This document shows, in pieces, positions 47,898 through 62,463 of a stretch of 64,000 bases of DNA (its first letter is position 1; every line of letters starts with the position of its first letter). The stretch is from [Archangium] primigenium (GTDB lineage: Bacteria > Myxococcota > Myxococcia > Myxococcales > Myxococcaceae). A program made the translations under genes and the position numbers. The stretch lies in contig NZ_JADWYI010000001.1 in the NCBI RefSeq assembly GCF_016904885.1, positions 7,177,224-7,241,223 on the forward strand, read 5' to 3'. Under the pieces are notes generated by a model. That model had not been told where the DNA came from. It searched no databases and saw nothing but the letters and a program-made list of their open reading frames with translations.

Positions 47898-47898
47898 C
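47843..47898 (+). terminator. Hairpin plus T-rich tract after tRNA-Gly
   Basis: AAGGGCCTGGA ... TCCAGGCCCTT (11-bp stem) followed by CTTCTTTGCC. Confidence 0.45.
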
Positions 47899-47951
47899 AA
47901 CCCGGGCGAGTGGCGTCTCCAAGGACGCGGACGGGATGCCGTTGGGGCAGG

Positions 47952-48281: not shown

Positions 48282-48796
48282 GGAAGGAACTTGATCTCTC
48301 GAATGCCGAGCCCTTGAACGGTGACGTCAAGGGTCGGTGGGCCTGATGTCGACGAGGGACGCAAGCCCACCGTGCCTCCATTCGGAAGGCGTACCAGCTG
48401 GCCCGGGTAGGATGTACCGGTGACGCGCGTCCCACCGCCTGAGAGTTGCTCGAACAACTTCTCCGCCTCGCGGAGACCTCCCTTGATGACTCTGATCTTG
48501 GGACTGGAGCCTTCGGAACCGATGAGCCGTCCTCCGGGTCGCAGCAAGTCCTCAATGCCCCGGACCGAAACCGGAGCAGTTGGCTGTGCCGCCTGGCCTT
48601 GCTGCGCATGAGGCGGTGTGGGCGAGGGCTTGGCCTTCGCAGCGGCCTGCTCAATCTCCGCTGCCTTCCCTGGGTCGGCCACGCGCAGGGCCTCGCAGGC
48701 CGTTGGTGAGCCCTGCTTACACCCGCATATCGCAGTGCCATCCGTTGGTGAGCAGGGCGCATGTGCCAGCAAGAGGACCAGGAGGAAAGGGAGCAC
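48278..48796 (-). CDS. Secreted/lipoprotein-like hypothetical protein (172 aa from GTG), toxin-like by context
   Basis: The track ORF 48278..48937 begins by translating the antisense of the tRNA repeat. A plausible GTG start at 48796 gives VLPFLLVLLLAHAPCSPTDGTAICGCK (signal peptide with Cys). C-terminal ~100 aa globular region. GC3 ~69%, versus ~88% in core genes. Confidence 0.4.
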   Translation of the reverse strand: MLPFLLVLLLAHAPCSPTDGTAICGCKQGSPTACEALRVADPGKAAEIEQAAAKAKPSPTPPHAQQGQAAQPTAPVSVRGIEDLLRPGGRLIGSEGSSPKIRVIKGGLREAEKLFEQLSGGGTRVTGTSYPGQLVRLPNGGTVGLRPSSTSGPPTLDVTVQGLGIREIKFLP

Positions 48797-48836
48797 GGGC
48801 CTCAACCTACTCGGGGTTCGACTTGCGAGTACGCGC

Positions 48837-48943
48837 GCTTCCCAAGCTCGGGGTCGAGGGTTCGAATCCCTTCCGCCGCTCTGAACGAAGGGCCTGGAAT
48901 CTCTGGGGAACTCCCCCGGTGACTCCAGGCCCTTCATCTTTTC
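48837..48943 (+). repeat. Direct repeat copy 2: displaced partial tRNA-Gly 3' half plus hairpin (att-like scar)
   Basis: The 49-bp tRNA-derived segment is identical. The downstream part has a 3-bp insertion (CGA) and a few substitutions. It is not a functional tRNA because the 5' half is absent. Confidence 0.8.
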
Positions 48944-48961
48944 CGGCTGGAGCCGCCCCCG

Positions 48962-50323
48962 TCAGGGCTTCGCGAGCACCGCCGCTTCCAGCCGGGCCAG
49001 CGAGCGCTTGAGCTCGGACATCTCCGTCTTGAGCGCGTCCACCTCCGCGCTCTTGGCCTTCAGCTCCTCCGTGCGGCGCGCCAGGGCCTGGATGGCCACC
49101 ATGTTCACCCCGTCGATGTCGAGCAGGCCGATGCTGCGCTCGTCGGGCCCCAGGCCGAACGCCGCGCGGAAGTCCTGGGCCACCGGCCCCACGTGCCGCA
49201 CCCCCCGCTGCTCCGACTTGTACTGCCAGCTGCGCACGGGCAGCGCGAGCACCCGGGCCAGCACCTGCTCCCCGTCCACGCTCCGGAAGTCCTCCTTGCT
49301 GTCCCGGTCGGACGTGCAGGAGAAGACGCCCGAGCCCGCGGGCAGATCACACCCGGTGCTCAGCGTGGCGCTGGTGCGCAACCGCACTCCACCCGCCGCG
49401 CGCACCATGAACTGGTTGGCCGCGGTGTTCGTCACCGTGCTGGTGGTCGACTGATCTCCCCAGATGAACGCGCCCGAGTGGCCGCCCGAGTCCGCCCGAT
49501 GTCCCAGCGCGAACGAGTAGTTCGCGTTCGCCGAGACGCGATACCCCAAGGCCACCGAGCCCTGTCCACTGGCCACATTGGTGTACCCCAGCGCCACCGA
49601 CGTGAAGCCGCTCGCCACGTTCGAGGCGCCCACGCTCAACGACGCCGTGCCGGAGGCCTTGCTGACCGAGCCCAGGCAGACCGCCACCGTCCCCTCCGCC
49701 TCGCACTGGTCCCCGTAGGCGAACGAGCCCAAAGCGCTGGCCTTCGTCAGGTTGCCACCCGCCCAGGACAAAAAGCCGATGTTGGCCTCGTCCCACTGCG
49801 TCTCGGTGTAGCCCGCGCGGAAGCTCGCCTTGGAGGGGTACCACATGAGCCGGTAGCCCTTGCCCGTCACGGGCAGCGTGCCGTTGCCCAGCTCGCCGGC
49901 CGCCACCAGTCCGCCCGCCGAGTCCACCGAGAACAGCGGAAAGCCCGCCCAGGCGGGCTTGTCCGTGGTGTTGCGCACGCTCAGCAGCGGCACCGGCTCC
50001 TGGGCACTCGCCGTCGCGTCGAGCACCACGTCCGTGTTCGCCGTCAACCGGCCCTGCACCTGCCCCGTCCCCCGCACCGCGAACGATGCGTCCTGAGGCG
50101 TCGTCCCCTTCTGGAGCGCCTGGGCCAACCGGGCATCGTTGCCCTCCACGGACGTGCCCGGACCGTCCCCGTAGACGACCCGCACCGCCTCGCCATCGAG
50201 CGAGAGCCCGGTGCCCACCTGCACGCCGCTCGGGGGCGGGGTGGCGGGGTCACACCCGCACAGACCCACGATCGCGACACCACTCCAGGCCACCACGGCT
50301 CCTCGAATCGACATGCCCTTCAC
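48962..50323 (-). CDS. Tail-fibre-like lipoprotein with YadA-head-like repeats and C-terminal peptidase S74 (endosialidase intramolecular chaperone) domain
   Basis: Lipobox VGLCGCD. Repeats SVALGYTNVASGQGSVALGY...SFALGH. C-terminal CTSDRDSKEDFRSVDGEQVLARVLALPVRSWQYK...GLLDIDGVNMVAIQAL + coiled coil matches the S74 chaperone domain. Confidence 0.75.
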   Translation of the reverse strand: MKGMSIRGAVVAWSGVAIVGLCGCDPATPPPSGVQVGTGLSLDGEAVRVVYGDGPGTSVEGNDARLAQALQKGTTPQDASFAVRGTGQVQGRLTANTDVVLDATASAQEPVPLLSVRNTTDKPAWAGFPLFSVDSAGGLVAAGELGNGTLPVTGKGYRLMWYPSKASFRAGYTETQWDEANIGFLSWAGGNLTKASALGSFAYGDQCEAEGTVAVCLGSVSKASGTASLSVGASNVASGFTSVALGYTNVASGQGSVALGYRVSANANYSFALGHRADSGGHSGAFIWGDQSTTSTVTNTAANQFMVRAAGGVRLRTSATLSTGCDLPAGSGVFSCTSDRDSKEDFRSVDGEQVLARVLALPVRSWQYKSEQRGVRHVGPVAQDFRAAFGLGPDERSIGLLDIDGVNMVAIQALARRTEELKAKSAEVDALKTEMSELKRSLARLEAAVLAKP

Positions 50324-50377: not shown

Positions 50378-51274
50378 ATGAGCCAGAACCCCCCTCTGAC
50401 GCGGGCCCTGCTGTCCCTGGAGGGGCTGTCCGTGGGCGACGCCTTCGGCGAGCGCTTCCTCCAGGCCCCGGCCCTCGCCGAGGAGGACGTGGCCCGGCGC
50501 CAGTTGCCCGCCGCGCCGTGGGCCTACACCGACGACACGGAGATGGCCCTCGCGCTCGTCCAGGTGCTGGAGGAGCACGGACACATCGAGCCCGAGCGGC
50601 TGGCGCGGCTCTTCGGCGCCCGCTACCGCGCCCACCCGCGCCGGGGCTATGGCGCCACCGCGCACGACATCCTCCAGAAAATCCACCTGGGCATGCCCTG
50701 GCGGGACGTCTCCTCCGAGGTGTTCGGCGGCACCGGCTCCATGGGCAACGGCGCCGCCATGCGCGCCGCCCCGCTCGGCGCCTGGTTCGCCGATGACTTC
50801 GAGCGCTGCGTGAGCGAGGCCCGGCTGTCCGCCGAGGTGACGCACTTCCACCCCGAGGGACAGGCGGGCGCCATCGCCGTCGCCGTGGCGGCCGCCTGGG
50901 CCCACCGCTGGCGGGAGGCGCGCATGCCCGCCCCGGAACTCTTCGACGTGGTGCTCGCGTACACCCCGCCCGGGGAGACACGCGCGGGCCTGGAGAAGGC
51001 CCGCCAGTGGCCCCTGGAGGCCACCCCCACCTCCGCGGCGCGCGCCCTGGGCAGCGGCCAGCGCGTGCTCGCCCAGGACACGGTGCCCTTCTGTGTCTGG
51101 AGCGCGGCCCGCCACCTCGGGGAATACCCCGAGGCCCTCTGGAGCACCGTGGCGGGCAAGGGCGACCGGGACACCACCTGCGCCATCGTGGGCGGGCTCG
51201 TCGCGCTGAGCGCGGGCCGCGAGTCCATTCCCCCCGCATGGCTCACCGCTCGCGAGCCCCTCCCCCGCCGATAG
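50378..51274 (+). CDS. ADP-ribosylglycohydrolase family protein (ARH/DraG-like)
   Basis: ATG at 50378 preceded by GAGGAG. 298 aa. ARH-type motifs (SLEGLSVGDAFG, YTDDTEMALAL, GSMGNGAAMRAAPLG, DTVPFCVWSAARH, GDRDTTCAIVGGLV). The track ORF 49193..51274 is an antisense-extended version. Confidence 0.8.
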   Translation: MSQNPPLTRALLSLEGLSVGDAFGERFLQAPALAEEDVARRQLPAAPWAYTDDTEMALALVQVLEEHGHIEPERLARLFGARYRAHPRRGYGATAHDILQKIHLGMPWRDVSSEVFGGTGSMGNGAAMRAAPLGAWFADDFERCVSEARLSAEVTHFHPEGQAGAIAVAVAAAWAHRWREARMPAPELFDVVLAYTPPGETRAGLEKARQWPLEATPTSAARALGSGQRVLAQDTVPFCVWSAARHLGEYPEALWSTVAGKGDRDTTCAIVGGLVALSAGRESIPPAWLTAREPLPRR

Positions 51275-51293: not shown

Positions 51294-54200
51294 TCAGAAA
51301 CGCACGCACGCCTTGGCGTTGATGGAGGCCTCGGACTTCGCGCCGAGATCGATGGGTTCGATCGAGACCTGGCCATCGAAGAAGGACACGAAGGCGGGCC
51401 CAAACCCCACGCCCCCCTCTCCCTTGAAGGAGGGACCACACGGCCCCAGCGAGACCTCGGCGCTCACCTTCATCTTCGACCCCAGCGCCGCGTTGGTGAT
51501 CTCCGCCTTGACCGAGACCCCAGGATCGGCCAAGCCCCCGAACGGCTTGAACTCGAAACCCAAGCCCGCCCCGAAGCCCACCTGGCCGCAGGCGGAGAAC
51601 CCCTGGCCGGGAACCCAGGCCAGCTCGAACCCCCCACCCACTCCGTCGTACCCGGAGAACCCGATGGAGATGAAACCCGTCGGATCGACGCGGTTGACCG
51701 GGTCGCCCATCGCGTATTGATACAGGTTGAGCTGCCCCCCCGCGAAGCGCAGGGGATCTCGCGCCGTCCAGCGGCCCGCCTCCGCGTCGTAATCGCGGAC
51801 CCCGAAACGGGTGAGCCCACTGTGGCTGTCATAGAGGCCGCCCGCGAAGCCGAAGGGCTGGAAGCCTGGATTGGAATCGGACAGCACCTCGCCAAAAGGG
51901 CCATACTCCAGGGACTGCTCGACAACACCCGTGGAGGCATTGACGACCAGACGGATGCTGCCCAGCTGGTCGGTGAGGAGGCGGTAGGTGACACCATCCT
52001 TGAGCATGTAGTCGGGGACATGGCGCTGGCTGGCGTAGACGAAGCGGGAGACGACGGCGCCCGCGCCATCCAGCTCGGCCACCACACGCACGGGCCCGTC
52101 ATAGAGAAAGCCCTGGACCAAGGTGCCGCCGAGACGCTTGCCCACCCTGCGACTGGAGGCGTCCAGCACATAGTCCACTTGGGTGCCGTCGGGCAGCTGC
52201 ACGTGGGTGAGCGCCCCCAGGGCATCGTAGACGTACTGGGTGGGGGCGGCCTCGGACGAGCGCGAGCGCTGTTGCAAGTCGCCGTTGAGGCCAAAGGCGT
52301 AGGTGGCGGCCCCCTGCGTCTGGAGTCGCTCCTGGGCGTCATAGGTGGCGGTGAGGGTAGCGCCCCCCTGGGTGAGCGAGGTGCGGTTGCCATTGAGGTC
52401 GTAGCCGTAGGCGGAATAGGGCGCTCCGTCCAACGTCACGGCGTGGAGACGCCCGGCCAGGTCATAGGCGTACCCCCACACGCGGGTCACGCCTGACGTG
52501 GCTTCCGTCTTGGAGGTGATCCGCCCGGCGACGTCCCGGTCCAGGATGAGGCTGTAGAGGGGGGTGCTTCCCCAGACAGCGGACAGCGCTCGCACCTCGC
52601 CATGGGCATTGTACTGCTGCTCGGTCCTCACCTGGTCCAGGGTGGTCGTGGACAGCAACCCGGTGTCTTGCCCGCGCCCCAGGGAGAGCGCGCCCGCGGA
52701 GATGAGCAGGCCATCCAAATCATACGCATAGGCGAAGGACTGCCCCTGCACCTCGAGCGCCTGGAGGGAGAAGTCGGGGGTATAGGTGTAGCTCACGCCG
52801 CCCTGGACCTCGCCACTCCACGCCACGCTCTTCACCAAGGGCCCGTCATAGGCATACGCCAGGCTAGGACCCGCGCTGTCCGTGAGGGCCGCGAGATGGC
52901 CCTGGGCGTCATACACAAAATCCACCGTGGTCCGGGGCGTGGTGAGCGCGTCCACCCGGCCCGCGCCGTCCCTGGCCAGTTGCACGGAAGCACCGTCTGG
53001 CAGGGAGATGGACGTGAGGGCCCCGTCCCCGTTGTAGGCATACCGCGTGGGAGACAGGGGCGCGGAGGAGAGCGGAGGCGGGGTGTCGCTGTCCACGGTG
53101 TCGGCCGGGGTGTAGCGGAAGTCATGGGCGGAGCGCCCGGGGGGAACCATCCGGGTGAGATTGCCGTGGGCATCGGACGCGAGCCCCACGGTGCGGCCTC
53201 CTGGGAGCCGCTCGGCGGTGAGGCGACCCGCCCCGTTGTAGCTGAAGTCCGTGGTGCGCCCGAGGACGTCCTCCACCGTCGCCAGGTAGCCCGCGGCGTC
53301 GTAAGTATAGGTTTCCGTGCGCTCGCCTTGCGTCACCTTCCAGGGACGTCCCTCGGCGTCATAGCTGTACTCCAGGGGCAGCACGCCCACGACCTCCTGC
53401 CGGACCAGTCTTCCCCGCGCATCCAAGACGGAGGTGGCTAGGCGCCCACTGGGGCTCCGGGTCCTGAGGGTGCGGCTCGCGACCGCGTACGTGGCCGTCT
53501 GCGTGCGTCCATTCTGGCTGCGCGTGTCCACCACGGTCTCGAGCCCCTTCGTGACATCCCCCTGGACGTAGGTGGCCACATTGCCGTGGGTGGAGCTGGA
53601 GGTGAGGCCCCCCGGCAGCGTCACCTGAACGGAGGAGCGCAGGGGCACCTGCATCCCGAAGCGTGCGTCCGGGCCCAGCACTTCCGTGGTGCGGGTGCCA
53701 TCCGGCGCCAGGGTGGTCGTGGTGCTTCCGTCCGCCGTCCGCAGGCTCGATGTGACCGTGCCATCCGGCGCCGTGGTGGTGCGCTGCTGCCCTCCTCCCG
53801 CCAGTTCCCGCACCTGGTAGCGGGTGGTGGTCCCCAAGGCGGTGGAGACGGCGACCGAGTAGCCATCCTCGGCATCCGTTCGCGACAGGTGCTTGTAGCC
53901 CCCCGTGGGCTGGGTGTCCCGCGCCAGCCTTCCCCGAGCGTCATAGGTGTACTGGTGCAAGCCGCCTCGGGCATCCCGCATCGAGGTGAGCAGCCCATGG
54001 GTGGAGTGCTCGAGTTCCACGCGCTCTCCCGCCGGGTTCGTCAGGGAGGAGAGGTAGCCCTGGACATCCCATGTCAGGCGGGTGCGCTGGCCATGAGGGG
54101 CGATGATCGCCAGGGGCTTGCCCGAGGTGTCCCGCTCGATCCGGGTGACCAGTCCGTCTCCATCCGTCACCGAGGTGAGCCGACCGTCCGTGCTGTAGTC

Positions 54201-57200
54201 GAACTGGTAGTGGAGCGCCCCCGTCAGTGCATTCACGGTGCGAAGGTGCCGGCCCCCAGACCCGAAGACGTACACCTCACCGCCGGCCTCGGAGAGGATG
54301 GAGATGCCGCCGACAGAAGAGGCGCTCAATGGCGCGGGGCGCACGGCGCGAACACGGTGGTTGTTCCTATCCGCGATGTACAGAGTGCCGTCTGGCCCGA
54401 CGGCGATGCGGGATGTGCCATTGAAACGAGCCAGGGTGGCTGGCCCTCCATCACCGCCAAAACCGCCCGTGCCCGGTGTCCCCGAGCCCGCCACGGTGGT
54501 GATGAGGCCTTCCGGGTCCACGCGCCGAATGCGTTGGTTGAAGTCATCCGCGATATACAGACTGCCGTCCGGGCCCACGGCGACATCCTGCGGGTACAGG
54601 AAACGAGCCAGGGTGGCCGGCCCCCCATCGCCGTCAAAACCGCCCGTACCCGGTGTCCCCGAGCCCGCCACGGTGGTCACGGTGCCCTCCGGGCCCACAC
54701 GCCGAATGCGTTGGTTGCCCGTATCCGCGATGTACACGCTCCCGTCCGGGCCCACGGCGACCCCCCTTGGGTAATTGAAACGCGCCAGGGCGGCCGGTCC
54801 GCCATCGCCGCCAAAGCCCGACGTCCCCGTGCCCGCCACGGTGGAAATACGGCCCTTCGGGTCCACGCGCCGGATGCGCTGGTTGAAGACATCCGCGATG
54901 TACAGACTGCCGTCGGGTGCCACGGCGACACTCTCCGGAGAGCTGAAGTAGGCCTGGGTGGCCGGCCCCCCATCGCCGCCAAAGGTGCCATGACCCGGTA
55001 TCCCCGAGCCCGCCACGGTGATCATGGTGCCATTCGGGCGCACGCGCCGGATGCGTTGATTTTTCCTATCCGCGATATACAGGCTGCCGTCCGGGCCCAC
55101 GGCGACAGCGGATGGGCTGTCGAGGTACATCGAGTTGCCAAGCTCCCCCTCGTTGCCGTTCAGTCCCGGCAAGCCGACAATACCCGCCACGGTTTTGATG
55201 CTGCCGTCTGGACTCACCCGCCGGACGCGGTGGGAATAGAGTTCCACGAGATAGAAGGCCCCATCTGGCCCGACGGCGACCCCCACGGGTTGGCCCACAT
55301 GGGTCTGCGTTGCTGACAATGAGTCGAGTGAATAGGCGAGGACGCCCGTACCCGCCACGGTGAAGATGTTGCCCGCGGTGAGCGACCCTGAGCTTGTCTC
55401 CCCATGGCCGAAAAGGATCCGGCCGCCGTGGGGATCCCACTGGTGGTGCACGGACAGTCGCCAGCCCCCCAGGTCTTCAGGCGACTCGCTCCATCCACCC
55501 ACCCGAGAGCGCCACGACTGCCAGGAGGTCATCTCCCTCCGCTCTCGGTTGGAAGTGACGGGCTCCGAACCCAGTTGCGCGAAGGAATCGGGGAACTCGG
55601 CGGGCTTCAAATAGACGAGCGGGTAGCGATAACCCGTCCTGCCCGTAACGACCGCCTCACCTTGCACCTTTCGGCCGTAGGCATCCTTCCCATCCCATGT
55701 GAACGAGAGCGTCTGGTGAGGCGCGGCGGGCAGCTCGTAAGTGAAGGCTCTGCCCGCGACATTCACCTCGACGACGATTCCCTCGAGCGAGGGCGGCACC
55801 GAGGCACCACTGACAGGAATGCGCAGGGTGTTCTTGTCTTGCCCCCGCACCCGGTCACTCCGGTAGTGCAGGCGCGAGGACGTCCCCGTGAGCGGCAGTG
55901 ACTCGCCCAATGCCTGGTTCTGACAATCAATGACGCTGCCCTTCTGGCAATCCGGCTTGTTCTCGGGACCCGCCTGGGGCGGCGCGTTCGTCGGAGGCCG
56001 CGCCCCCGGGGGAGGCCCATAGGGCCAGTTGTAATCCCACGGAGTGAAGTGGCTCACGGGGACGCGCCACAGGCTCTTGCCCACCGGGTAGAGGCTGGCC
56101 AACTGCCGCTGCTCGGCCTCGGAGATGCCCAGCGTGGCCAGCACCGCGGCGCTGTCCGGCACGCCGTCTCCCGTGACATCCAGTTGCGCCACACCCTCGA
56201 GGACGCCGTGCACCTGGAGGATGCGGCCGTTGGTCGAGGGCAGCCAGACCCCTCGCCGCCGATCGTAATAGCCCGAGGGCACGGTGCCGCCCACGGGGAA
56301 GCCCAGGAAGTTGTCCACGTAGGAGGCCACGGGCTGGGTGAAGCGCACCTCCTGGCTGTCCAGCGCCAGGGCCTCGTCCAGGGACAGCTCCACCGCGTAG
56401 GTGTACCCGCTGGTGGGAGGCAGATGCGCCGGCATGGAGGCGGGCCCCTCCTCGCCCACCGTGTACTCGGTGGCGCGCACCGTGGCCGAATAGAGGGGCA
56501 CCTCGTCCCCATTGGCCAGGACGGCCAGGGCCTGGGTGCCCGGGGCGAAGAGGAGCGTGGCCTGCCGGGTGCCATCCGCGTCCGTGACCGGGCTGCCTCG
56601 CGCCACCTGGTGGGTGGTGCTCGTGCCGCTGAAGTCCACGGGCGTGCCCTGGGGGTCCAACGGGACGAGCACCACGTCCGGCAGCCAGGCGAAATCTCCC
56701 CAAGGGACGTGGAGCTGGCGCTGAGACGGCAGCAGTCCCTCGGCCTCGTACCTCACGGTGAGGAGGCCTCCGCCATTCACGGCCAGGTCGAAGAGGCCAT
56801 CCTCCCGTGTGAGGGTGTGGCCATACTCCGGATGGTCGAGCACGGAGACGCGCACCTCCTCCAGCGGGTAGCCCTGACGTGAGCGCACCTTGCCGCGCAG
56901 CACCGCCAAGCGATGGGGCACCAGGGTGCCGGGGGCCACGCCCACCTGGATGGGGTCCTCTCCCGAGTAGAGGAAGGACACGGCGTCCACGAAGGGCGTC
57001 ACCGCGAACGGGGACAGCGCGGGCGCGCGCTCCTCGGGGGCGGGCGGAAGGTCGAAGGGCGGCACGTCCACATGCAGGGCGGCGACGGACTCCTGGACCA
57101 GCGAGCCGTAGGCATTTCCCTGGCCATCCCGCCAGGACAGCGCCACCTGGGTCCGCTGGGCCTGCCCCTCGAGCGCCCGCAGGCGCGCGGCGTACGCCGA

Positions 57201-57905
57201 GACGGTTTCACCCCGCTGCCTCACGGGAAGTGGAGGCGGCGTCCAGGTCACCGCCTTGTTCCAGGTGGCGCCCGGCGCCATCGCGTCCAAGGCCACCTCC
57301 ACCCGCGTGGCGTCGGACAACACCACCTGGAGACTTCCCGAGGCGGTCCCCGCCAACCCCCCGTTGGTGACCGTCACGGTATAGGTGATCGCCTCTCCCG
57401 GCAGTGCCACCACGGGGCCTTCCAGGCGCAGGGAGAGACGCGGCAGTACCACGCGACCGTCCGAGGACAACGAGAGGGGCTTGGCCTGAACTCCCGGGGT
57501 CTCGGCGAAATGAACCTCCCCTCGCGATACGAGCGGCTGCCGCTCCAGGTCCTCCAGACGTTGGTGGTAGGAGGCGAGCGACTCGGATTCCCCCCGCGGC
57601 GCCGCGACCGGCGCCGCCAGGTGGAAGGTCACGGTGCGCTCTTCCCCCACCGCCAGGGCACCCACCCGCTCCTCGGCGGAAGGCGGCTGCGTTCCCTGGA
57701 AAGCCTCCCCCACTCGCACGTCGTCCACCGGTACGGAGGACGTGTTGGTCAGTCGTACCAGGACATCGAACCCCTGCCCCGGCAGCACCTCCAAGGGTTG
57801 TGTCTGTGTGGCCACGAGCGAGGCCGGTACCGGGGCGGCGCTGTCACATGCCCCCATCCCCAGCAGCATCCACAGCGCCACCACACGAATGGTCAACGAA
57901 GACAT
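51294..57905 (-). CDS. Teneurin-like RHS/YD-repeat protein: signal peptide, DUF11/CARDB-like repeats, 5 NHL repeats, YD-repeat shell, RHS core, 125-aa Gly-rich C-terminal domain of unknown function
   Basis: Met at 57905 (MSSLTIRVVALWMLLGMGAC). NHL units (LYIADRKNQRIRRV, LYIADVFNQRIRRV, VYIADTGNQRIRRV, LYIADDFNQRIRRV, LYIADRNNHRVRAV). Many YD motifs (YTYDARGRL, YSYDAEGRP, YAYDLAGRL...). RHS core terminus RDPLRFAGGQLNLYQYAMGDPVNRVDPTGF. Then a novel C-terminal domain. Confidence 0.85.
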   Translation of the reverse strand: MSSLTIRVVALWMLLGMGACDSAAPVPASLVATQTQPLEVLPGQGFDVLVRLTNTSSVPVDDVRVGEAFQGTQPPSAEERVGALAVGEERTVTFHLAAPVAAPRGESESLASYHQRLEDLERQPLVSRGEVHFAETPGVQAKPLSLSSDGRVVLPRLSLRLEGPVVALPGEAITYTVTVTNGGLAGTASGSLQVVLSDATRVEVALDAMAPGATWNKAVTWTPPPLPVRQRGETVSAYAARLRALEGQAQRTQVALSWRDGQGNAYGSLVQESVAALHVDVPPFDLPPAPEERAPALSPFAVTPFVDAVSFLYSGEDPIQVGVAPGTLVPHRLAVLRGKVRSRQGYPLEEVRVSVLDHPEYGHTLTREDGLFDLAVNGGGLLTVRYEAEGLLPSQRQLHVPWGDFAWLPDVVLVPLDPQGTPVDFSGTSTTHQVARGSPVTDADGTRQATLLFAPGTQALAVLANGDEVPLYSATVRATEYTVGEEGPASMPAHLPPTSGYTYAVELSLDEALALDSQEVRFTQPVASYVDNFLGFPVGGTVPSGYYDRRRGVWLPSTNGRILQVHGVLEGVAQLDVTGDGVPDSAAVLATLGISEAEQRQLASLYPVGKSLWRVPVSHFTPWDYNWPYGPPPGARPPTNAPPQAGPENKPDCQKGSVIDCQNQALGESLPLTGTSSRLHYRSDRVRGQDKNTLRIPVSGASVPPSLEGIVVEVNVAGRAFTYELPAAPHQTLSFTWDGKDAYGRKVQGEAVVTGRTGYRYPLVYLKPAEFPDSFAQLGSEPVTSNRERREMTSWQSWRSRVGGWSESPEDLGGWRLSVHHQWDPHGGRILFGHGETSSGSLTAGNIFTVAGTGVLAYSLDSLSATQTHVGQPVGVAVGPDGAFYLVELYSHRVRRVSPDGSIKTVAGIVGLPGLNGNEGELGNSMYLDSPSAVAVGPDGSLYIADRKNQRIRRVRPNGTMITVAGSGIPGHGTFGGDGGPATQAYFSSPESVAVAPDGSLYIADVFNQRIRRVDPKGRISTVAGTGTSGFGGDGGPAALARFNYPRGVAVGPDGSVYIADTGNQRIRRVGPEGTVTTVAGSGTPGTGGFDGDGGPATLARFLYPQDVAVGPDGSLYIADDFNQRIRRVDPEGLITTVAGSGTPGTGGFGGDGGPATLARFNGTSRIAVGPDGTLYIADRNNHRVRAVRPAPLSASSVGGISILSEAGGEVYVFGSGGRHLRTVNALTGALHYQFDYSTDGRLTSVTDGDGLVTRIERDTSGKPLAIIAPHGQRTRLTWDVQGYLSSLTNPAGERVELEHSTHGLLTSMRDARGGLHQYTYDARGRLARDTQPTGGYKHLSRTDAEDGYSVAVSTALGTTTRYQVRELAGGGQQRTTTAPDGTVTSSLRTADGSTTTTLAPDGTRTTEVLGPDARFGMQVPLRSSVQVTLPGGLTSSSTHGNVATYVQGDVTKGLETVVDTRSQNGRTQTATYAVASRTLRTRSPSGRLATSVLDARGRLVRQEVVGVLPLEYSYDAEGRPWKVTQGERTETYTYDAAGYLATVEDVLGRTTDFSYNGAGRLTAERLPGGRTVGLASDAHGNLTRMVPPGRSAHDFRYTPADTVDSDTPPPLSSAPLSPTRYAYNGDGALTSISLPDGASVQLARDGAGRVDALTTPRTTVDFVYDAQGHLAALTDSAGPSLAYAYDGPLVKSVAWSGEVQGGVSYTYTPDFSLQALEVQGQSFAYAYDLDGLLISAGALSLGRGQDTGLLSTTTLDQVRTEQQYNAHGEVRALSAVWGSTPLYSLILDRDVAGRITSKTEATSGVTRVWGYAYDLAGRLHAVTLDGAPYSAYGYDLNGNRTSLTQGGATLTATYDAQERLQTQGAATYAFGLNGDLQQRSRSSEAAPTQYVYDALGALTHVQLPDGTQVDYVLDASSRRVGKRLGGTLVQGFLYDGPVRVVAELDGAGAVVSRFVYASQRHVPDYMLKDGVTYRLLTDQLGSIRLVVNASTGVVEQSLEYGPFGEVLSDSNPGFQPFGFAGGLYDSHSGLTRFGVRDYDAEAGRWTARDPLRFAGGQLNLYQYAMGDPVNRVDPTGFISIGFSGYDGVGGGFELAWVPGQGFSACGQVGFGAGLGFEFKPFGGLADPGVSVKAEITNAALGSKMKVSAEVSLGPCGPSFKGEGGVGFGPAFVSFFDGQVSIEPIDLGAKSEASINAKACVRF

Positions 57906-57992
57906 GTGCGCCCCCCAGGCGCACGAGCCTACCGTCGACGGTGACCCCACCGACGGCCTCGTTCGACAGACGTTGGGCCGGAAACAAGGGAA

Positions 57993-59219
57993 TCAGGTGC
58001 CCGGCGCGCGGTACTGGAGCTGCAACGGTGAGCCCCGCGTGTTGTAGGGGTGGTCGGCGCCCACGGCGGACATCCACCCGCACGCGCCCCGGTTCCACAG
58101 GTCCACCACCTGGTTGTTCGCGCTGTAGGTCGCCTCACCGGAGGCGGCGTAACCCGCCGCGGCGAACTGGTTGGGCGCCATGACGAAGGCCGTGCCCCTC
58201 AGGTCGACGTTGCCCAGGCCCGTGTTGCCGAAGTCGCAGTTCATGGCCGAGCCGTAGGTCATGGAGGTGACGGGGTCGCCGTGCGAGAGCACTCCCGTGG
58301 ACGTGGCGAAGGTCTGGTCCGCGGTGTTCACCCGCAGTGTCGCGGGATCGATGCGGACCTTGGTGTAGACGGTCCGCACGTTCGTGTCCCCCGGGCGGTC
58401 GGACCGTGCGGTGTACTGGGAGAAGTTGCTCGACGCGCCCGTGGAGGGCAGCGGCAGGTAGTCCGTGGGGCCACCGGACATGTTGTGGCAGTAGGCCGTC
58501 CAGGGCTGGGCGGCATTGCCCTTCACGTACAGCGTATACGTCCCGTCCTGCGCGGGAGGATGCGTGAGCTTGTACTCCAGGCAGCTCGCCGGAGTCACAT
58601 CCAGCCACGACCCCTGGGTCACGTCCACGAAGTGCATGAGCCTCAAGCTGCCACTGGGGCTGGTCAGCCAGTACGGCTTGCCCGCCGGATCGAACAGGTC
58701 CTTGAACGCGCCGTTGCCCTGCAGGACGAAGAACTGTCCCGGCCCCGGGACGCTCATGTCCTGGGAGAGGACGACCTGGACACTGATGTTGGGATACTCG
58801 TTGTCGTTGTTGTACCCCCGCGCGAACCACGACCACCTGCGGCCGTCATAGTCATAATCCCGCTGCTCCCCATGCTCGCCCCAGGCCGCCACCCGCGTCG
58901 GGAAGACCGTGGGATTCACACCGTAATGACTGACATCCCCGATAAGGCAGCTGTACTTGCCATTGGACGGAAACGAGCCGTAGCGGCAATTGCGGCCTCC
59001 CTGGCTCGTGGTCGTATAGATGGAGGTGACCGCGAGCTTGCCGTCCTGCATGAAGAGCTCGGACTTCGAGCGGAACCCCGCGTTGTCGAACGTCAGGATG
59101 ACCGCCAGCTTCCCATTGGGCCAGTACCACGCCATCCGGGCATCCGCTCGCGCGGAGGCACTGAGCAGACACGTCAGGGAGACTGCCGCGAGGGATGCGA
59201 GCGATGCCAAGCGCTTCAT
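57993..59219 (-). CDS. Secreted protein with Cys-containing C-terminal domain weakly reminiscent of GON/fibrinogen-like domains
   Basis: Signal peptide MKRLASLASLAAVSLTCLLSASARA. 408 aa. Conserved Cys/Trp/Tyr pattern (TYTLYVKGNAAQPWTAYCHNM...MNCDFGNTGLGNVDL...WNRGACGWM). Co-oriented 42 nt upstream of the RHS gene. Confidence 0.6.
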   Translation of the reverse strand: MKRLASLASLAAVSLTCLLSASARADARMAWYWPNGKLAVILTFDNAGFRSKSELFMQDGKLAVTSIYTTTSQGGRNCRYGSFPSNGKYSCLIGDVSHYGVNPTVFPTRVAAWGEHGEQRDYDYDGRRWSWFARGYNNDNEYPNISVQVVLSQDMSVPGPGQFFVLQGNGAFKDLFDPAGKPYWLTSPSGSLRLMHFVDVTQGSWLDVTPASCLEYKLTHPPAQDGTYTLYVKGNAAQPWTAYCHNMSGGPTDYLPLPSTGASSNFSQYTARSDRPGDTNVRTVYTKVRIDPATLRVNTADQTFATSTGVLSHGDPVTSMTYGSAMNCDFGNTGLGNVDLRGTAFVMAPNQFAAAGYAASGEATYSANNQVVDLWNRGACGWMSAVGADHPYNTRGSPLQLQYRAPGT

Positions 59220-59362: not shown

Positions 59363-60511
59363 TCACAGCAGGCCGGTGCCGTACGCGTAGCTCCGGGTGG
59401 GCCCCTCGCCCTCGGTGGACAGACGCCGCACGCTCAGGTTCATCGAGGGCACGTGCGAGCCGGGCGACGAGGAGAACGTCACCTGGAGCGTGTCCCCCCG
59501 CTTCACGGGAAGCGCGTCGATGGGAAACCACGTCTGGTGCCAGTGCGTGTGGATGGAGAACGGGGACGTGTCGAGCACCTCCCCGGGCGCCAGTTCCAGC
59601 TCGAAGTGGCCCGCCAGACCGTGCACCACCGCGTCCCGGTCCATGCGGAACTCCACGCTCGACTCGAAGTAGAAGGACCCCACCGACTCCTTCGTGCAGT
59701 CGATGTGCCGCAGGAGCACGGGCTCCGTCAGGTAGCTCTCGCGCCGGACCCGGTCGATCCGCATCTTCAGGTTGCCCAGCTCCTGCGCCTTCACCTGGCT
59801 GTAGTCAAAGCCCCCGATGGGCTGCTCCCAGAAGCCCGGACCCTCGTACTGGTAGAGCGCCGAGTCCTCGATGGGCGCCAGGAAGAGCCTGCCCGCCGAG
59901 GGAATGGTCCGGCCGCCGGGCTTGAGCACCCGGTCGCGCACCGCCGAGAACGCCGGGTACATGTTCTCCACGATGAGGAAGTGGCCAATCCACTCCGAGA
60001 CGATGACGTCCGCCTGGATGTCCGCGGAGAAGTCCGCCGCGTCCCCGTGGAACAGCTCGATCCGGTCCGCCAGGCCATTGGCCTCGATGAGCGAGCGCGC
60101 CGTGTGGACGATCGCGGAGCGCTCGATGGCGAAGACGCGCTCGGCGCCACTGGCCGCGGCCGCCATGGCGAGCAGCCCCGTGCCCGTGCCGACGTCCACC
60201 ACCGTGTCCCCGGGCTGGACCACCTTGCGGATGGCGCGCAGGAACGCGTCGTTGCGCGCCCGGTCGCGCAGCATGTTGCGCTGGCTGCCCAGGGTCGCGA
60301 AGTCCAGGAACAGCACCGAGGCCTGTTCGGACACCTCCTGCGAGGCCGACAGAATCCCCGACTCGCGGATGGCCGCGAAGCGCTCGCGCAGCACGGCCTC
60401 GGGCAGTCCGGAGCTCTGGGCCACCGAGCGGATCAACTCCTCGGGCTCCATGGGTGAGGCGAGCGCCAAGAGCAGGGGGATGACGTCTTCCCGGAGCTGG
60501 TAGAAGGGCAC
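59363..60511 (-). CDS. Protein arginine N-methyltransferase (PRMT)-family class I SAM-dependent methyltransferase
   Basis: Motif I VVDVGTGTGLL; post-I FAIERS; double-E loop SEWIGHFLIVENM; THW loop THWHQTWF; N-terminal MLRDRARNDAFLRAI like the PRMT pre-motif. 382 aa. Confidence 0.8.
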   Translation of the reverse strand: MPFYQLREDVIPLLLALASPMEPEELIRSVAQSSGLPEAVLRERFAAIRESGILSASQEVSEQASVLFLDFATLGSQRNMLRDRARNDAFLRAIRKVVQPGDTVVDVGTGTGLLAMAAAASGAERVFAIERSAIVHTARSLIEANGLADRIELFHGDAADFSADIQADVIVSEWIGHFLIVENMYPAFSAVRDRVLKPGGRTIPSAGRLFLAPIEDSALYQYEGPGFWEQPIGGFDYSQVKAQELGNLKMRIDRVRRESYLTEPVLLRHIDCTKESVGSFYFESSVEFRMDRDAVVHGLAGHFELELAPGEVLDTSPFSIHTHWHQTWFPIDALPVKRGDTLQVTFSSSPGSHVPSMNLSVRRLSTEGEGPTRSYAYGTGLL

Positions 60512-60578: not shown

Positions 60579-62390
60579 TCAGGGACGAGCGACGAGCTCC
60601 CGGTGCTGGTTGAAGAACCGCTCGAACAGCACGGTCAGTCGCTTGCGGATTTCTTCTCGGGGATGCTGCTCCCATTGGGCGAGGCAGCTCAGCAGCTCGC
60701 GCACCCACCCGGGGTTTTGCATGCGGGCGAACCGGGCCTCGAAGTAGAGCGCGAGGACCAGGGACTCGTTCTTCTCCTGCCCGTCCAGACGGACACCCGG
60801 TTGGGGATAGTCCTCGTGAGGGTCCAGTCCCGTCGGCAGTCCGGCGATCTCGATGACCACGCGCTTGAGCGCCCCCGGCTCGGCGTCGCGCAGCGGGAGC
60901 GTGCCGAGCCGACACGCATGGAAGAGCCAGATGAGGTAGCGCCGCAGCCGGCGCTCGGACAGCATCCGCATGGGACGCTCGGGCTCGAAGACCCGAAAAC
61001 TCTCCAGCACGTTCCAGGCGATGTCTTCCATGTCCTGGGTCCGCGTCCGGCCCCGCGCCCTTCCCGGCCGATGGTCTGTTCGCCAGGCGAGCGCCGCCTC
61101 GACGGCGAGCGCATCCGCGTCGAAGTCCAGCGCCTCGAGCACGAACCCTGTCCGGCCGCTGCCCTGGTAGTCATAGGAGGTGGCGCCCTGCTGGGCGACA
61201 TGGAACGCCTCGTGGACGAGCAACAACCGGACGCACTCCTCCCAGTCCTCGGGCGAGCGCAAGCGCTCCTGCAACTGCCGGTATCCCAGCAACAGGTTGA
61301 CGTGGAACGTCCAGCTGCCGTTGAGGTGCCGGAAGAGCGGGGCATTCTGGCGCGCGGGAACCGTGTCGATGTCGCTCTGGAGCAGGGACGTCTGCTCCAG
61401 CTTCTGGCGCAGGGACTTCTGTTTGGGACGCTTGAGCCAATCACACAGCTGCGCGTGGATGGTACGCACCCGCTTGAGCAGCTCTCCGGCCTCGGCGAAC
61501 TGCTCGGACGAGGGCGAGCCCGGTGTCGACGCGACCCGCCGCGGCGGATGGATGCGGCGGACGGCGAGGTACTTGCGCTGCTCGGGGTTGAAGTGGTGGA
61601 GCACCACGGGATGCTGCGTGTTCGTGTTGATGACCGAGCCCAGCGCGGCGGCCAGGCTGGCGGGTCCATCCATGGCGAGCAGCACGGACTCCACGCCCTC
61701 CAGGTGCTTGTGCAGGGTGTCCATCACGGAGCGGAACTGCTCGGCGGCCTCGGACGCATCCTGGAGGCTCTGGACGGCCTGGGGGCTCGGGCCTCCCCGC
61801 GCGGGCCGCAGGACCACGGTGGCGAGCAGCTCCGAGGGATGGCGGGCCTGGAACTCGGCGAGCGCCACATCCCGGATGGACTGGGTCACCTCGACGATGA
61901 GGGCCACCTTGCCCCGGCCTCCCTGACGTGACGTGGGCAGCCCCTCCAGCGCGAAGAACGGCGTCTGCGCGGAGGACAGCGAGCGGTCATAGCCCAGCAG
62001 CCAGGTGCCATCCGTGATCCGCTGTTGATACACGTACAGCGGCCGGCGCGGCAGGCAGGACGCCAGGTGCAGCATCAGCATCAGGGGGGCGCACCCGAAG
62101 AGGTGGATGTCCAGATCCACCCCCAGCTCCCGCTCCTTCCTCGACAAGGCCTCGGCGAAGCGCTCGTTCTCGTCGAAGGCCGCGGACCAGTCCTGCTCGG
62201 GCCGCGTCCGGATGCGCGTGTGGGGCTCGAACGGATGCAGCACGACCGCCACGACATCCCGGTCACCTTCCACGCCTCGCTGCTTCAGGGCGTCGCGCGC
62301 GGCGTCCTCCGTGATGGGCCTGTCGTGCTCGTAGCGCAGGATGAGGGCTCGGGTCCTCACGTTGATGGGAATGTCGATGTCCATGGGCAT
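60579..62390 (-). CDS. Hypothetical protein: N-terminal tandem Rossmann-like (SAVED/CARF-like) repeats fused to C-terminal DUF4157-type HExxH (zincin-like) domain
   Basis: Start at the Met at 62390 (MPMDIDIPI...); the track start at 62522 would overlap the kinase gene. Two repeats centred on IHLFGCAPLMLMLHLASCL...PLYVYQQ and VLLAMDGPASLAAALGSVIN...PVVLHHF. The C-terminal LLLVHEAFHVAQQG matches the DUF4157 HExxHxxQQ signature. Confidence 0.7.
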   Translation of the reverse strand: MPMDIDIPINVRTRALILRYEHDRPITEDAARDALKQRGVEGDRDVVAVVLHPFEPHTRIRTRPEQDWSAAFDENERFAEALSRKERELGVDLDIHLFGCAPLMLMLHLASCLPRRPLYVYQQRITDGTWLLGYDRSLSSAQTPFFALEGLPTSRQGGRGKVALIVEVTQSIRDVALAEFQARHPSELLATVVLRPARGGPSPQAVQSLQDASEAAEQFRSVMDTLHKHLEGVESVLLAMDGPASLAAALGSVINTNTQHPVVLHHFNPEQRKYLAVRRIHPPRRVASTPGSPSSEQFAEAGELLKRVRTIHAQLCDWLKRPKQKSLRQKLEQTSLLQSDIDTVPARQNAPLFRHLNGSWTFHVNLLLGYRQLQERLRSPEDWEECVRLLLVHEAFHVAQQGATSYDYQGSGRTGFVLEALDFDADALAVEAALAWRTDHRPGRARGRTRTQDMEDIAWNVLESFRVFEPERPMRMLSERRLRRYLIWLFHACRLGTLPLRDAEPGALKRVVIEIAGLPTGLDPHEDYPQPGVRLDGQEKNESLVLALYFEARFARMQNPGWVRELLSCLAQWEQHPREEIRKRLTVLFERFFNQHRELVARP

Positions 62391-62463
62391 CCGGTGGTGT
62401 TTTCCGCCTCCACACGGGAAGACGGAATCGCCGGGCGAATCCATCGCGGGCCGTGCGCTTTTT

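What the first reader, a model, noticed from the sequence alone, without database searches (positions are those of the whole stretch)
51294..57905. Teneurin-like NHL/YD/RHS protein with an uncharacterised Gly-rich C-terminal domain and no co-oriented immunity gene
The 2,203-aa secreted protein combines DUF11-like repeats, five NHL repeats, a YD shell and an RHS core ending in GDPVNRVDPTGF. The bacterial teneurin-like architecture usually precedes a variable toxin tip. Here the tip (ISIGFSGYDGVGGGFELAWVPGQGFSACGQVGFGAGLGFEFKPFGG...ACVRF, ~125 aa) is glycine/aromatic-rich with no nuclease or deaminase motifs. No small gene follows on the same strand. It could be a non-enzymatic (membrane-active?) tip or a novel toxin whose immunity is encoded elsewhere.
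Basis: partly seen in the sequence, partly recalled or inferred. Interest (0 to 1): 0.55.

Follow-up and report, generated by a model that had tools for sequence, protein, structure and literature searches.

The report
Bacterial teneurin-like toxin, barrel-type tip
This myxobacterial gene encodes a bacterial teneurin-like shell protein whose glycine-rich tail belongs to a recently published "outer-membrane-protein-like" cargo class that is predicted to form a small beta-barrel, has no known function, and has no partner immunity gene next to it.

Summary
A 2,203-aa lipoprotein-type ORF (51294-57905, minus strand) has the full bacterial teneurin-like (TLP) architecture and a 125-aa Gly/aromatic tail with no Pfam or NCBIfam match. 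A convergent ADP-ribosylglycohydrolase gene lies 19 nt downstream.

The tail is not an orphan sequence. An exhaustive search found about 30 cluster representatives, nearly all at the C-terminus of TLPs from several phyla. Its HMM matches the Paenibacillus oryzisoli CTD that Raoelijaona et al. (Nat Commun 2026) label "OMP". AlphaFold2 gives an eight-stranded beta-meander or barrel (pLDDT 88). The resemblance to Vap proteins and outer-membrane barrels is only generic.

Residues aligned with the solved Bacillus TLP (PDB 9pt5) suggest cleavage after F2078 and in the FN-plug, with encapsulation of the tail.

Three Cystobacter orthologues keep the tail under purifying selection. Eleven loci carrying it share no downstream gene.

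My best reading is a membrane-inserting beta-barrel cargo that needs no dedicated immunity protein. Toxicity is unproven, and published relatives were harmless when made in the E. coli cytoplasm.

Verdict: a new member of a known, very recently described kind, of moderate interest.

The parts
51294..57905 (-). Teneurin-like protein (TLP) gene, 2,203 aa from ATG (alternative GTG start at 57950)
   Evidence: ORF list and translation. GC3 0.84. phmmer E=0 to PDB 9pt5_A/9ifo_A 'Teneurin-like protein' and about 1e-114 to teneurin-2/3/4.
57846..57905 (-). Predicted Sec/SPII lipoprotein signal, MSSLTIRVVALWMLLGMGA|C20
   Evidence: Read from the sequence. Orthologues have ...GVLAC and ...GMVAC at the same place. 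PMC13018210 reports SPII signals for Myxococcota TLPs. No predictor was run.
57006..57773 (-). N-terminal Ig-like (CARDB/DUF11-type) repeats, about residues 45-300
   Evidence: Pfam CARDB E 7e-6, DUF7507 E 2e-3, DUF11 E 0.35. This is the least conserved part between orthologues (54-62% identity).
56667..56915 (-). TTR-like domain (residues 331-413)
   Evidence: Pfam PF25020 TTR_TEN1-4, E 1e-23.
55572..55979 (-). FN-plug (residues about 643-778)
   Evidence: phmmer alignment to 9ifo_A/9pt5_A residues 709-846, E 3e-33. Pfam PF24329.
55923..55949 (-). FN-plug loop C653-Q-K-G656|S657-V-I-D-C661: predicted second autoproteolysis site and tether cysteine
   Evidence: C653 aligns with BiTLP C719, and G656|S657 with G723|S724. 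PMC13018210 gives the roles of those residues.
54336..55316 (-). NHL beta-propeller (residues about 864-1190)
   Evidence: Pfam TEN_NHL E 2e-43, NHL E 5e-38.
51906..54308 (-). YD/RHS-repeat shell (residues about 1200-2000)
   Evidence: Pfam TEN_YD-shell E 3e-48, RHS_repeat E 2e-30; TIGR01643.
51672..51905 (-). RHS-repeat-associated core with aspartyl-protease residues R2045, D2050, D2074; predicted cleavage after F2078
   Evidence: TIGR03696 E 4e-20. Residue-by-residue alignment to BiTLP R2111/D2116/D2140/L2144.
51297..51671 (-). Gly/aromatic-rich C-terminal domain (residues 2079-2203), 'OMP-like' CTD class, with C2106, C2156, C2200 and a C-terminal Phe
50378..51274 (+). Convergent neighbour: ADP-ribosylglycohydrolase. 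Listed to show what occupies the 'immunity' position; not considered part of the system.
   Evidence: PF03747 E 1e-53. Only 24 bits to the Tri1 model against a cutoff of 490. No homologue in any other fetched locus.

Best explanation
The gene encodes a surface-anchored bacterial teneurin-like protein (TLP). It has an N-terminal lipoprotein signal and Ig-like repeats, followed by the TTR, FN-plug, NHL and YD-shell superfold.

By analogy with the solved Bacillus inaquosorum TLP, I infer two self-cleavages: in the FN-plug loop (G656|S657) and after the RHS core (F2078|I2079). The 125-aa C-terminal domain would then stay enclosed in the YD shell. It is probably tethered by a disulfide between the FN-plug C653 and one of the three conserved tail cysteines.

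The tail is a member of the 'OMP-like' CTD class. It is an amphipathic, glycine-rich, eight-stranded beta-meander that can close into a small barrel. One face carries variable hydrophobic residues. The other carries invariant Gly/Ser/Cys/charged residues. The chain ends in an aromatic residue.

I propose that, once released onto a neighbouring cell, it inserts into a membrane and perturbs it. It would act from outside or from the periplasm, either as a monomeric barrel or by contributing hairpins to an oligomeric pore. Because it is harmless while enclosed or in the cytoplasm, no dedicated immunity protein would be needed.

Shown here: architecture, family membership, conserved cleavage and tether residues, predicted fold, conservation pattern, and lack of a conserved partner gene.
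Inferred: cleavage, encapsulation, the disulfide, membrane insertion and toxicity.
For: Architecture:
- Pfam and NCBIfam domains.
- E=0 to PDB 9pt5/9ifo.

Cleavage and tether residues:
- R2045/D2050/D2074/F2078 align with BiTLP R2111/D2116/D2140/L2144.
- C653 and G656|S657 align with C719 and G723|S724.
- The mature protein has only five cysteines: two in that FN-plug loop and three in the tail.
- In BiTLP, C719 is disulfide-bonded to a CTD cysteine (PMC13018210).

Family:
- 31 hits in 1.8 billion representatives. All ten hits longer than 1,700 aa that carry the tail at their C-terminus are TLP-type proteins; the other two long hits are internal repeat matches.
- The tail HMM scores 103-129 bits on Paenibacillaceae CTDs in the paper's alignment, including P. 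oryzisoli, which the paper labels 'OMP'.

Fold:
- AlphaFold2 pLDDT 87.7, pTM 0.70, eight strands.

Membrane-type pattern:
- In every strand one face has essentially no charged residues but is variable in identity.
- The other face holds the invariant Y8, G10, G12, G14, G24, S26, C28, G32, G34, G36, C78, K116 and C122.
- 26 of 30 members end in F or W.

Functional constraint: dN/dS 0.32-0.38 in the tail against 0.19-0.32 in the shell.

Module behaviour: L007 carries an orphan copy of the tail with a duplicated core remnant, behind a TLP that has a different tip.

Precedent: the unrelated BiTLP CTD permeabilises E. coli only when it is sent to the periplasm.

No partner gene: none shared among 11 loci.
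Against: - No toxicity has been shown for this class. The P. oryzisoli and D. oleivorans 'OMP' CTDs grew like empty vector at the one post-induction time point (1 h) I could read in the source data, and the paper counts only three other CTDs as inhibitory. They were expressed from pBAD with an N-terminal tag.
- I could not read model coordinates, so the inside/outside assignment rests on sequence statistics alone.
- Eight-stranded barrels normally do not form wide pores.
- Producers include Gram-positive bacteria, and no delivery or release mechanism is known.
- A missing immunity gene fits a non-toxin equally well.
Confidence: 0.5

Rival explanations
1. The tail is a non-toxic cargo or structural module. 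It would be a conserved beta-domain stored in or lining the shell, serving adhesion, kin recognition, signalling or shell stability rather than killing. That would explain why no immunity gene exists.
For: - No conserved downstream gene in 11 loci.
- Three Cystobacter orthologues keep the tail, with purifying selection like the rest of the protein.
- Published relatives were not toxic in E. coli.
- The family spans several phyla on the same scaffold.
- PMC13018210 itself leaves a cell-to-cell communication role open.
Against: - The protease and FN-plug cleavage residues typical of toxin-releasing RHS proteins are intact.
- The tail behaves as a displaceable module, shown by the orphan copy in L007.
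- It is one of many alternative tips on closely related shells.
- The invariant glycine face paired with a charge-free variable hydrophobic face is unusual for a soluble structural domain.
Confidence: 0.27
2. The tail is a conventional polymorphic toxin, possibly enzymatic and using the invariant Cys/Glu. Its cognate immunity protein would be encoded elsewhere in the genome or be too small or divergent to recognise.
For: - C28, C78 and C122 are invariant or nearly so, and position 30 is Glu in 26 of 29 members.
- PMC13018210 reports a downstream gene for 'almost all' TLPs and lists one for P. oryzisoli and D. oleivorans.
- Tips are polymorphic in the wider family.
Against: - Position 30 is Gln in the window protein and in the L001 and L002 orthologues, so a catalytic Glu is unlikely.
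- There is no His and no helix; the domain is all-beta and Gly-rich, with no match to any enzyme family.
- In the window only 19 nt separate the stop codon from a convergent gene.
- Downstream genes in other loci are unrelated housekeeping types: TetR, alpha/beta hydrolase, arylsulfotransferase, DUF4342.
Confidence: 0.13
3. The convergent ADP-ribosylglycohydrolase is the functional partner, for example immunity left over from or acting against an ADP-ribosylating tip.
For: - It lies immediately adjacent, 19 nt away.
- ART-type CTDs exist in other TLPs.
- From general knowledge: glycohydrolases such as Tri1 can act as immunity proteins.
Against: - The orientation is convergent.
- The present tail is not ART-like.
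- The protein scores 24 bits against the Tri1 model (cutoff 490) and 55 bits against DraG (cutoff 337).
- No homologue was found in any of the other loci then held, including nine that carry this tail.
Confidence: 0.03

Closest known systems
'OMP'-class C-terminal domains of bacterial teneurin-like proteins (Paenibacillus oryzisoli and other Paenibacillaceae TLPs; Raoelijaona et al., Nat Commun 2026;17:2753, PMC13018210)
   Same: Same sequence family. The tail HMM scores 107.8 bits on the P. oryzisoli CTD, and BLASTP gives 33% identity over 140 columns to the window tail. Shared motifs are G.S.Y.G.GGG, G.S.C.E.G.G.G, the conserved Cys, and a K...K.C...[FW] end. The position after DPxGL, the TLP scaffold and the predicted barrel are also the same.
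   Different: The producer here is a Gram-negative myxobacterium with a lipoprotein anchor rather than SLH domains. The tail is shorter (125 aa against about 140), lacks the extra Cys pair, and has Gln instead of the usual Glu at position 30. No downstream candidate immunity gene exists here.
Bacillus inaquosorum TLP (BiTLP; PDB 9pt5, 9ifo)
   Same: Same superfold (E=0). Same RHS protease triad and cleavage position, and the same FN-plug Cys and Gly|Ser site. Its CTD is also small, non-enzymatic and membrane-active.
   Different: The BiTLP CTD (92 aa, with a predicted hydrophobic helical segment) is not detectably related. The tail profile finds nothing in the PDB at E<=10, and the phmmer alignment stops 4 residues past the cleavage site.
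T6SS Rhs effectors and ABC-toxin TcB/TcC cocoons
   Same: YD-repeat shell, RHS core aspartyl protease, an encapsulated and cleaved C-terminal cargo, and tip polymorphism. PDB hits include 8qjb, 8h8a, 7q97 and 8cp6.
   Different: There is no PAAR, VgrG or TcA partner in the window. Export is Sec/SPII-type. The scaffold adds TTR, FN-plug and NHL domains. There is no adjacent immunity gene.
Metazoan teneurins
   Same: TTR, FN-plug, NHL and YD-shell superfold (E about 1e-114 to teneurin-2/3/4).
   Different: [quoted passage not shown] Here the triad is intact and the tail is an unrelated beta-domain.
Small beta-barrels: Rhodococcus equi VapB/VapG; eight- to twelve-stranded outer-membrane barrels (KdgM, OmpX/OmpA type)
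   Different: Sequence identity is 4-8%. There is no Pfam OMP or Vap match, and Foldseek is not significant. The resemblance is of fold type only, not membership.

Membership tests
Bacterial teneurin-like proteins (TLP) | FN-plug + NHL + YD-shell superfold | tested here: met
   Pfam PF24329, PF25021 and PF25023. phmmer E=0 to 9pt5_A/9ifo_A.
Bacterial teneurin-like proteins (TLP) | RHS core PxxxxDPxG motif with the R/D/D aspartyl-protease triad | tested here: met
   PVNRVDPTGF. R2045, D2050 and D2074 align with BiTLP R2111, D2116 and D2140. Actual cleavage was not tested.
Bacterial teneurin-like proteins (TLP) | FN-plug loop Gly|Ser cleavage site and Cys that tethers the CTD | tested here: met
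   C653 and G656|S657 align with C719 and G723|S724, with a one-residue deletion. The disulfide itself is not testable here.
Bacterial teneurin-like proteins (TLP) | Sec signal (SPII lipoprotein in Myxococcota) and N-terminal adhesion modules | tested here: inconclusive
   A lipobox-like LGMGA|C20 and a CARDB repeat are seen in the sequence. No signal-peptide predictor was available.
Bacterial teneurin-like proteins (TLP) | Small gene immediately downstream acting as cognate immunity | tested here: not met
   A convergent ADP-ribosylglycohydrolase lies 19 nt downstream. No shared downstream gene in 11 loci.
'OMP'-class TLP C-terminal domain | Sequence homology to the published OMP-class CTD (P. 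oryzisoli) | tested here: met
   HMM of 30 tails scores 107.8 bits. BLASTP gives 33% identity, E 6e-12. The record was assigned to P. oryzisoli from header order in Supplementary Data 3.
'OMP'-class TLP C-terminal domain | Confident predicted beta-barrel resembling outer-membrane proteins | tested here: met
Classical polymorphic toxin-immunity module (Rhs/CDI type) | Alternative C-terminal tips after a conserved junction; orphan tip modules | tested here: met
   None of 102 tails on the nearest shell homologues is of this family. An orphan copy with a core remnant is present in L007.
Classical polymorphic toxin-immunity module (Rhs/CDI type) | Family-specific immunity gene adjacent to the toxin tip | tested here: not met
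   All-against-all BLASTP and tblastx of downstream regions of 11 loci found only the same-species pair L002/L003, plus one weak tblastx match (L012-L007, E 5e-8, unrelated gene types) that I discounted.
Classical polymorphic toxin-immunity module (Rhs/CDI type) | Demonstrated toxicity of the tip | not testable with these tools
   In the literature, OMP-class CTDs grew like empty vector at the 1 h time point I could read, when expressed without an export signal.
Integral outer-membrane beta-barrel proteins (BAM substrates) | C-terminal beta-signal: terminal aromatic residue with alternating hydrophobic residues | tested here: met
   The window tail ends ...I-N-A-K-A-C-V-R-F. 26 of 30 members end in F or W.
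Integral outer-membrane beta-barrel proteins (BAM substrates) | Match to a known OMP sequence family or a significant structural match | tested here: not met
Integral outer-membrane beta-barrel proteins (BAM substrates) | Hydrophobic exterior and polar lumen; membrane insertion | tested here: inconclusive
   Column statistics fit: the hydrophobic face is variable and the Gly/polar face is invariant. Model coordinates could not be inspected, and insertion cannot be tested here.
Rhodococcus equi Vap family | Sequence homology to the Vap core | tested here: not met

The most novel reading that the evidence does not exclude
The OMP-like tail is a 'Trojan' barrel. It would be a cargo carrying a genuine beta-signal that, once released at a Gram-negative neighbour, is inserted into that cell's outer membrane, either spontaneously or by the victim's own BAM machinery. 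There it would form a leak or mark the cell. This would be a toxin or signalling mode with no enzymatic activity that needs no immunity protein, because the producer only ever holds the tail caged and disulfide-tethered inside the YD shell. Its presence on the Paenibacillaceae TLPs, reported as closest to metazoan teneurins, would make it a candidate ancestral cargo of the teneurin scaffold.
Probability: 0.12. Interest if true: 0.8.

Novelty: new member of a known kind. Interest (0 to 1): 0.38.

Why it matters
Bacterial TLPs were described structurally only in 2025-2026, as the ancestors of animal teneurins. Their OMP-like cargo class was named from structure prediction alone and showed no phenotype.

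This locus adds a myxobacterial member and several class-level observations:
- Three conserved cysteines, matched by the only other cysteines of the mature protein, which sit in the FN-plug loop.
- A transmembrane-barrel-like conservation pattern with a terminal aromatic residue.
- Purifying selection across orthologues.
- An orphan copy of the tail in another lineage.
- No shared neighbouring gene in any of 11 loci.

If the class is a membrane-inserting toxin that needs no immunity protein, the published picture of TLPs as toxin-immunity pairs would need modifying. It would also give a simple, testable effector. If the class is non-toxic, that would point to a non-killing role for some bacterial teneurins.

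Tried and rejected
- Word-indexed protein search with the tail alone found nothing. This was a false negative, corrected by the exhaustive search. The same tool run with a profile returned only 6 hits.
- The afdb50 fold library was unavailable.
- Foldseek against the PDB gave no significant match.
- The tail profile against PDB sequences gave no hit at E<=10, so the BiTLP CTD is not a detectable relative.
- An exact look-up of the window protein found no record, so the source organism was not identified. The closest relatives are Cystobacter.
- The metagenome scan failed with the broad alignment and returned one locus with a narrower one.
It was redone without them.
- ADP-ribosylglycohydrolase as immunity: rejected. 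It is convergent, absent from other loci, far below the Tri1 and DraG cutoffs, and the tail is not ART-like.
- Upstream GON/MORN-hit protein as a YwqK-like immunity: rejected. It has a signal peptide, the MORN hit is 19 bits against a cutoff of 29.6, NCBIfam sees only a fibrinogen-like motif, and it is absent from other loci.
- Catalytic Cys/Glu enzyme: disfavoured, because position 30 is Gln in this protein and its closest orthologues.
- A second tail or orphan module in the window: none found.
- 'Ancestral default tip of all TLPs': rejected. None of 102 nearest shells carries it, and the C. fuscus DSM 2262 TLP in the published set has a different CTD.

Full report
**1. Observation**

The minus-strand ORF 51294..57950 is present. 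It gives 2,203 aa from the ATG at 57905. It has the codon-position GC bias of a real gene in this ~70% GC sequence (GC3 0.84).

Pfam and NCBIfam give these domains:
- A CARDB-type Ig repeat (DUF11 is only marginal).
- TTR_TEN1-4, residues 331-413.
- FN-plug_TEN1-4.
- TEN_NHL/NHL repeats, about 864-1190.
- RHS/YD repeats and TEN_YD-shell.
- The RHS-repeat-associated core, residues 2001-2077.

The core ends in GDPVNRVDPTGF (F2078). The last 125 residues (window 51297-51671) match nothing in Pfam or NCBIfam at E<=1.

The next gene is convergent (50378-51274, plus strand). It encodes an ADP-ribosylglycohydrolase (PF03747, E 1e-53) whose stop codon lies 19 nt from the TLP stop.

**2. What the scaffold is**

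The protein matches 'Teneurin-like protein' structures 9pt5 and 9ifo at E=0, and metazoan teneurins at about 1e-114. These structures come from Raoelijaona et al., first a bioRxiv preprint and then Nat Commun 2026;17:2753 (PMC13018210).

That paper defines bacterial TLPs as accessory polymorphic toxins enriched in Myxococcota and Paenibacillaceae. It shows the following for the Bacillus inaquosorum protein (BiTLP):
- It cleaves itself after L2144, using the triad R2111/D2116/D2140.
- It also cleaves itself at G723|S724 in the FN-plug.
- It keeps the CTD inside the shell, with CTD C2216 disulfide-bonded to FN-plug C719.

Residue-by-residue alignments place R2045, D2050, D2074 and F2078 of the window protein on the triad and the P1 residue. 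They place C653 and G656|S657 on the FN-plug sites.

The whole protein has six cysteines:
- C20 of the lipobox-like LGMGA|C.
- C653 and C661 in the FN-plug loop.
- C2106, C2156 and C2200 in the tail.

Cleavage, encapsulation and tethering are therefore well-founded inferences. They were not observed here.

**3. The tail is a family**

A word-indexed search missed it. The exhaustive phmmer search of 1.8 billion representatives found 31 proteins at E<=1e-3. In nearly all of them the match is the extreme C-terminus, directly after DPxG[LF]. The few exceptions are internal repeat or low-complexity matches (P0003, P0009, P0030).

All ten proteins longer than 1,700 aa that carry it at their C-terminus have the TLP architecture. 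They include an Acidobacteriota protein (HSR52646.1) and an SLH-anchored Gram-positive-type protein (P0017).

The 30-sequence alignment A3 shows:
- A near-invariant Y8-x-G10-x-G12-x-G14.
- G24-x-S26-x-C28-x-E30-x-G32-F-G34-x-G36.
- C78, K116 and C122.

26 of 30 members end in F or W. No member hits any Pfam family, and the profile finds nothing in the PDB.

**4. Link to the published 'OMP' class**

[quoted passage not shown] It states that Paenibacillaceae TLPs carry a predicted outer-membrane protein as their CTD.

Its Supplementary Data 3 alignment contains Paenibacillaceae records with the same motifs. One example reads DPCGQ|FCVGASVYAVVGIGGKVCVTEEGVSACGDTGFGVGLGLEISPFED...IKAKLCSNLRW.

The record lying between the P. 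oryzisoli header and the next header scores 107.8 bits against my tail HMM. It aligns to the window tail at 33% identity over 140 columns. The window tail is therefore a member of that class.

The paper's source data let me read only the first hour after induction. At that point these two CTDs grew like empty vector, while the three toxic CTDs stalled. The paper itself counts only three CTDs as inhibitory. The constructs carried an N-terminal tag and no export signal is mentioned.

**5. Predicted structure**

AlphaFold2 on A3 gave mean pLDDT 87.7 and pTM 0.70. It predicts eight strands at residues 2-20, 24-42, 51-62, 65-76, 79-90, 93-96/102-104 and 112-124.

- Foldseek found nothing significant.
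- The fold type is therefore a small antiparallel barrel or meander, not a specific known family.

Column statistics show that in every strand one face is hydrophobic, essentially free of charge, and variable in residue identity. The opposite face holds the invariant Gly/Ser/Cys and conserved Glu/Lys. That is the pattern of lipid-facing against lumen-facing residues in membrane barrels, and the reverse of a soluble barrel core. I could not read coordinates, so this remains an inference.

**6. Evolution and context**

Three Cystobacter loci encode orthologues with the same tail:
- A MAG (L001).
- C. fuscus Cbf 10 (L002).
- C. fuscus NCWS (L003; its reading frame is interrupted upstream, so only the C-terminal half was compared).

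| Comparison with the window protein | L001 | L002 | L003 |
|---|---|---|---|
| Tail identity | 63% | 44% | 43% |
| Rest-of-protein identity | 68% | 68% | not comparable |
| Tail dN/dS | 0.32 | 0.38 | not computed |
| Shell dN/dS | 0.32 | 0.19 | not computed |

The tail was therefore inherited with the gene and is under purifying selection.

At a wider scale tips are polymorphic:
- Among the 120 closest shell homologues, none of 102 tails of at least 60 aa belongs to this family.
- The C. fuscus DSM 2262 TLP in the published set has a different CTD.
- In L007, a TLP with another tip is followed by an orphan copy of this tail. The orphan is preceded by a duplicated fragment of the RHS core, which is the classic trace of tip displacement.

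**7. Immunity**

The paper reports a gene immediately downstream of almost all TLPs. For this tail class I found no consistent partner.

| Locus | What lies downstream of the tail |
|---|---|
| Window | Convergent ADP-ribosylglycohydrolase |
| L001 | Secreted 457-aa protein |
| L002 | No confident gene, then a convergent 142-aa ORF |
| L007 | Dockerin protein |
| L010 | TetR regulator |
| L011 | Convergent DUF4342 protein |
| L012 | Alpha/beta hydrolase |
| L013 | 110-aa unknown protein, then a second TLP further on |
| L015 | Convergent arylsulfotransferase |
| L016 | 337-aa unknown protein |

All-against-all BLASTP of these products found nothing shared. tblastx of the 1.5 kb downstream of each tail found only the same-species pair L002/L003, plus one weak L012-L007 match (E 5e-8) between unrelated gene types, which I discounted.

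The glycohydrolase has no homologue in any other fetched locus and is far below the Tri1 and DraG cutoffs. The upstream gene encodes a secreted GON/fibrinogen-like protein that is not conserved either.

**8. Interpretation**

Best explanation (confidence about 0.5 overall):
- The protein is a lipoprotein-anchored TLP that auto-cleaves and cages an OMP-like, glycine-rich beta-barrel cargo.
- The cargo acts on membranes from outside or from the periplasm and needs no immunity protein.
- TLP and CTD-class membership is near certain.
- Cleavage and encapsulation are likely.
- Membrane activity is plausible but untested.

Rivals:
- A non-toxic cargo (about 0.27).
- A conventional or enzymatic toxin with immunity encoded elsewhere (about 0.13). 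This is weakened by Gln at the usually Glu position 30 in this lineage.
- The adjacent glycohydrolase as partner (about 0.03).

**9. Novelty**

The scaffold and this CTD class are already in the literature, so this is a new member of a known kind.

What is not in the paper, as far as I could read it:
- The cysteine bookkeeping.
- The conservation-face analysis.
- The terminal aromatic statistic.
- The orphan module.
- The systematic lack of a shared neighbouring gene for this class.

Interest is moderate. The function of the class remains open and is directly testable.

Noticed in passing
window 47767-48944: A tRNA-Gly(CCC) gene lies at 47767-47840. Its 3' part plus about 100 nt downstream (47782-47898) is repeated at 48823-48944 with 90-94% identity, about 1,041-1,046 nt away. 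The repeats bracket a lower-GC stretch (about 0.66) with no confident gene. It looks like the att-site duplication of a small integrated or decayed element.
   Followed up: partly
window 60579-62522 (-): A 647-aa protein matches the PADLOC 'SAVED_peptidaseM48' CBASS-type effector (E 2.5e-160). It lies next to a PRMT-like methyltransferase (59363-60511) that has a weak mad2 hit. No cyclase (CD-NTase) gene was recognised beside it, so it may be an orphan SAVED effector.
   Followed up: no
window 50378-51274 (+): An ADP-ribosylglycohydrolase gene converges on the TLP gene with only 19 nt between the stop codons. It is distant from both the DraG and Tri1 models and has no homologue in any other fetched locus.
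   Followed up: partly
window 48962-50323 (-): A 453-aa secreted protein combines YadA-head repeats with a C-terminal Peptidase_S74 (endosialidase intramolecular chaperone) domain. This is a phage-tailspike-like or trimeric-adhesin-like architecture in a myxobacterial chromosome.
   Followed up: no
L007 9724-10480: A TLP with a different tip is followed by two copies of a roughly 80-nt segment encoding AGRWTARDPVLFGGGQGNLY (an RHS-core remnant). After these comes an orphan copy of the Gly-rich tail (P0035). This is evidence of tip displacement by recombination.
   Followed up: partly
proteins P0084, P0140 (also P0096, P0134, P0149), tails after DPxGL: Related RHS shells carry another Gly/aromatic-rich, beta-looking tail, for example WYIDINISGGYWGGASFGVLIGSEGLFPYFGGG... 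It does not match the tail HMM. It may be a second barrel-type cargo family.
   Followed up: no
L013 16092-18499 and L006: Some contigs carry two TLP genes close together: P0011 followed by a 3,096-aa TLP, and P0013 and P0033 on one 114-kb contig. The L006 genes look fragmented, which may be assembly frameshifts.
   Followed up: no
window 57993-59219 (-): A secreted 408-aa protein with a GON domain and a fibrinogen-like GGGWT motif ends 43-88 nt upstream of the TLP start and is possibly co-transcribed. No homologue was found in the TLP loci fetched by then.
   Followed up: partly
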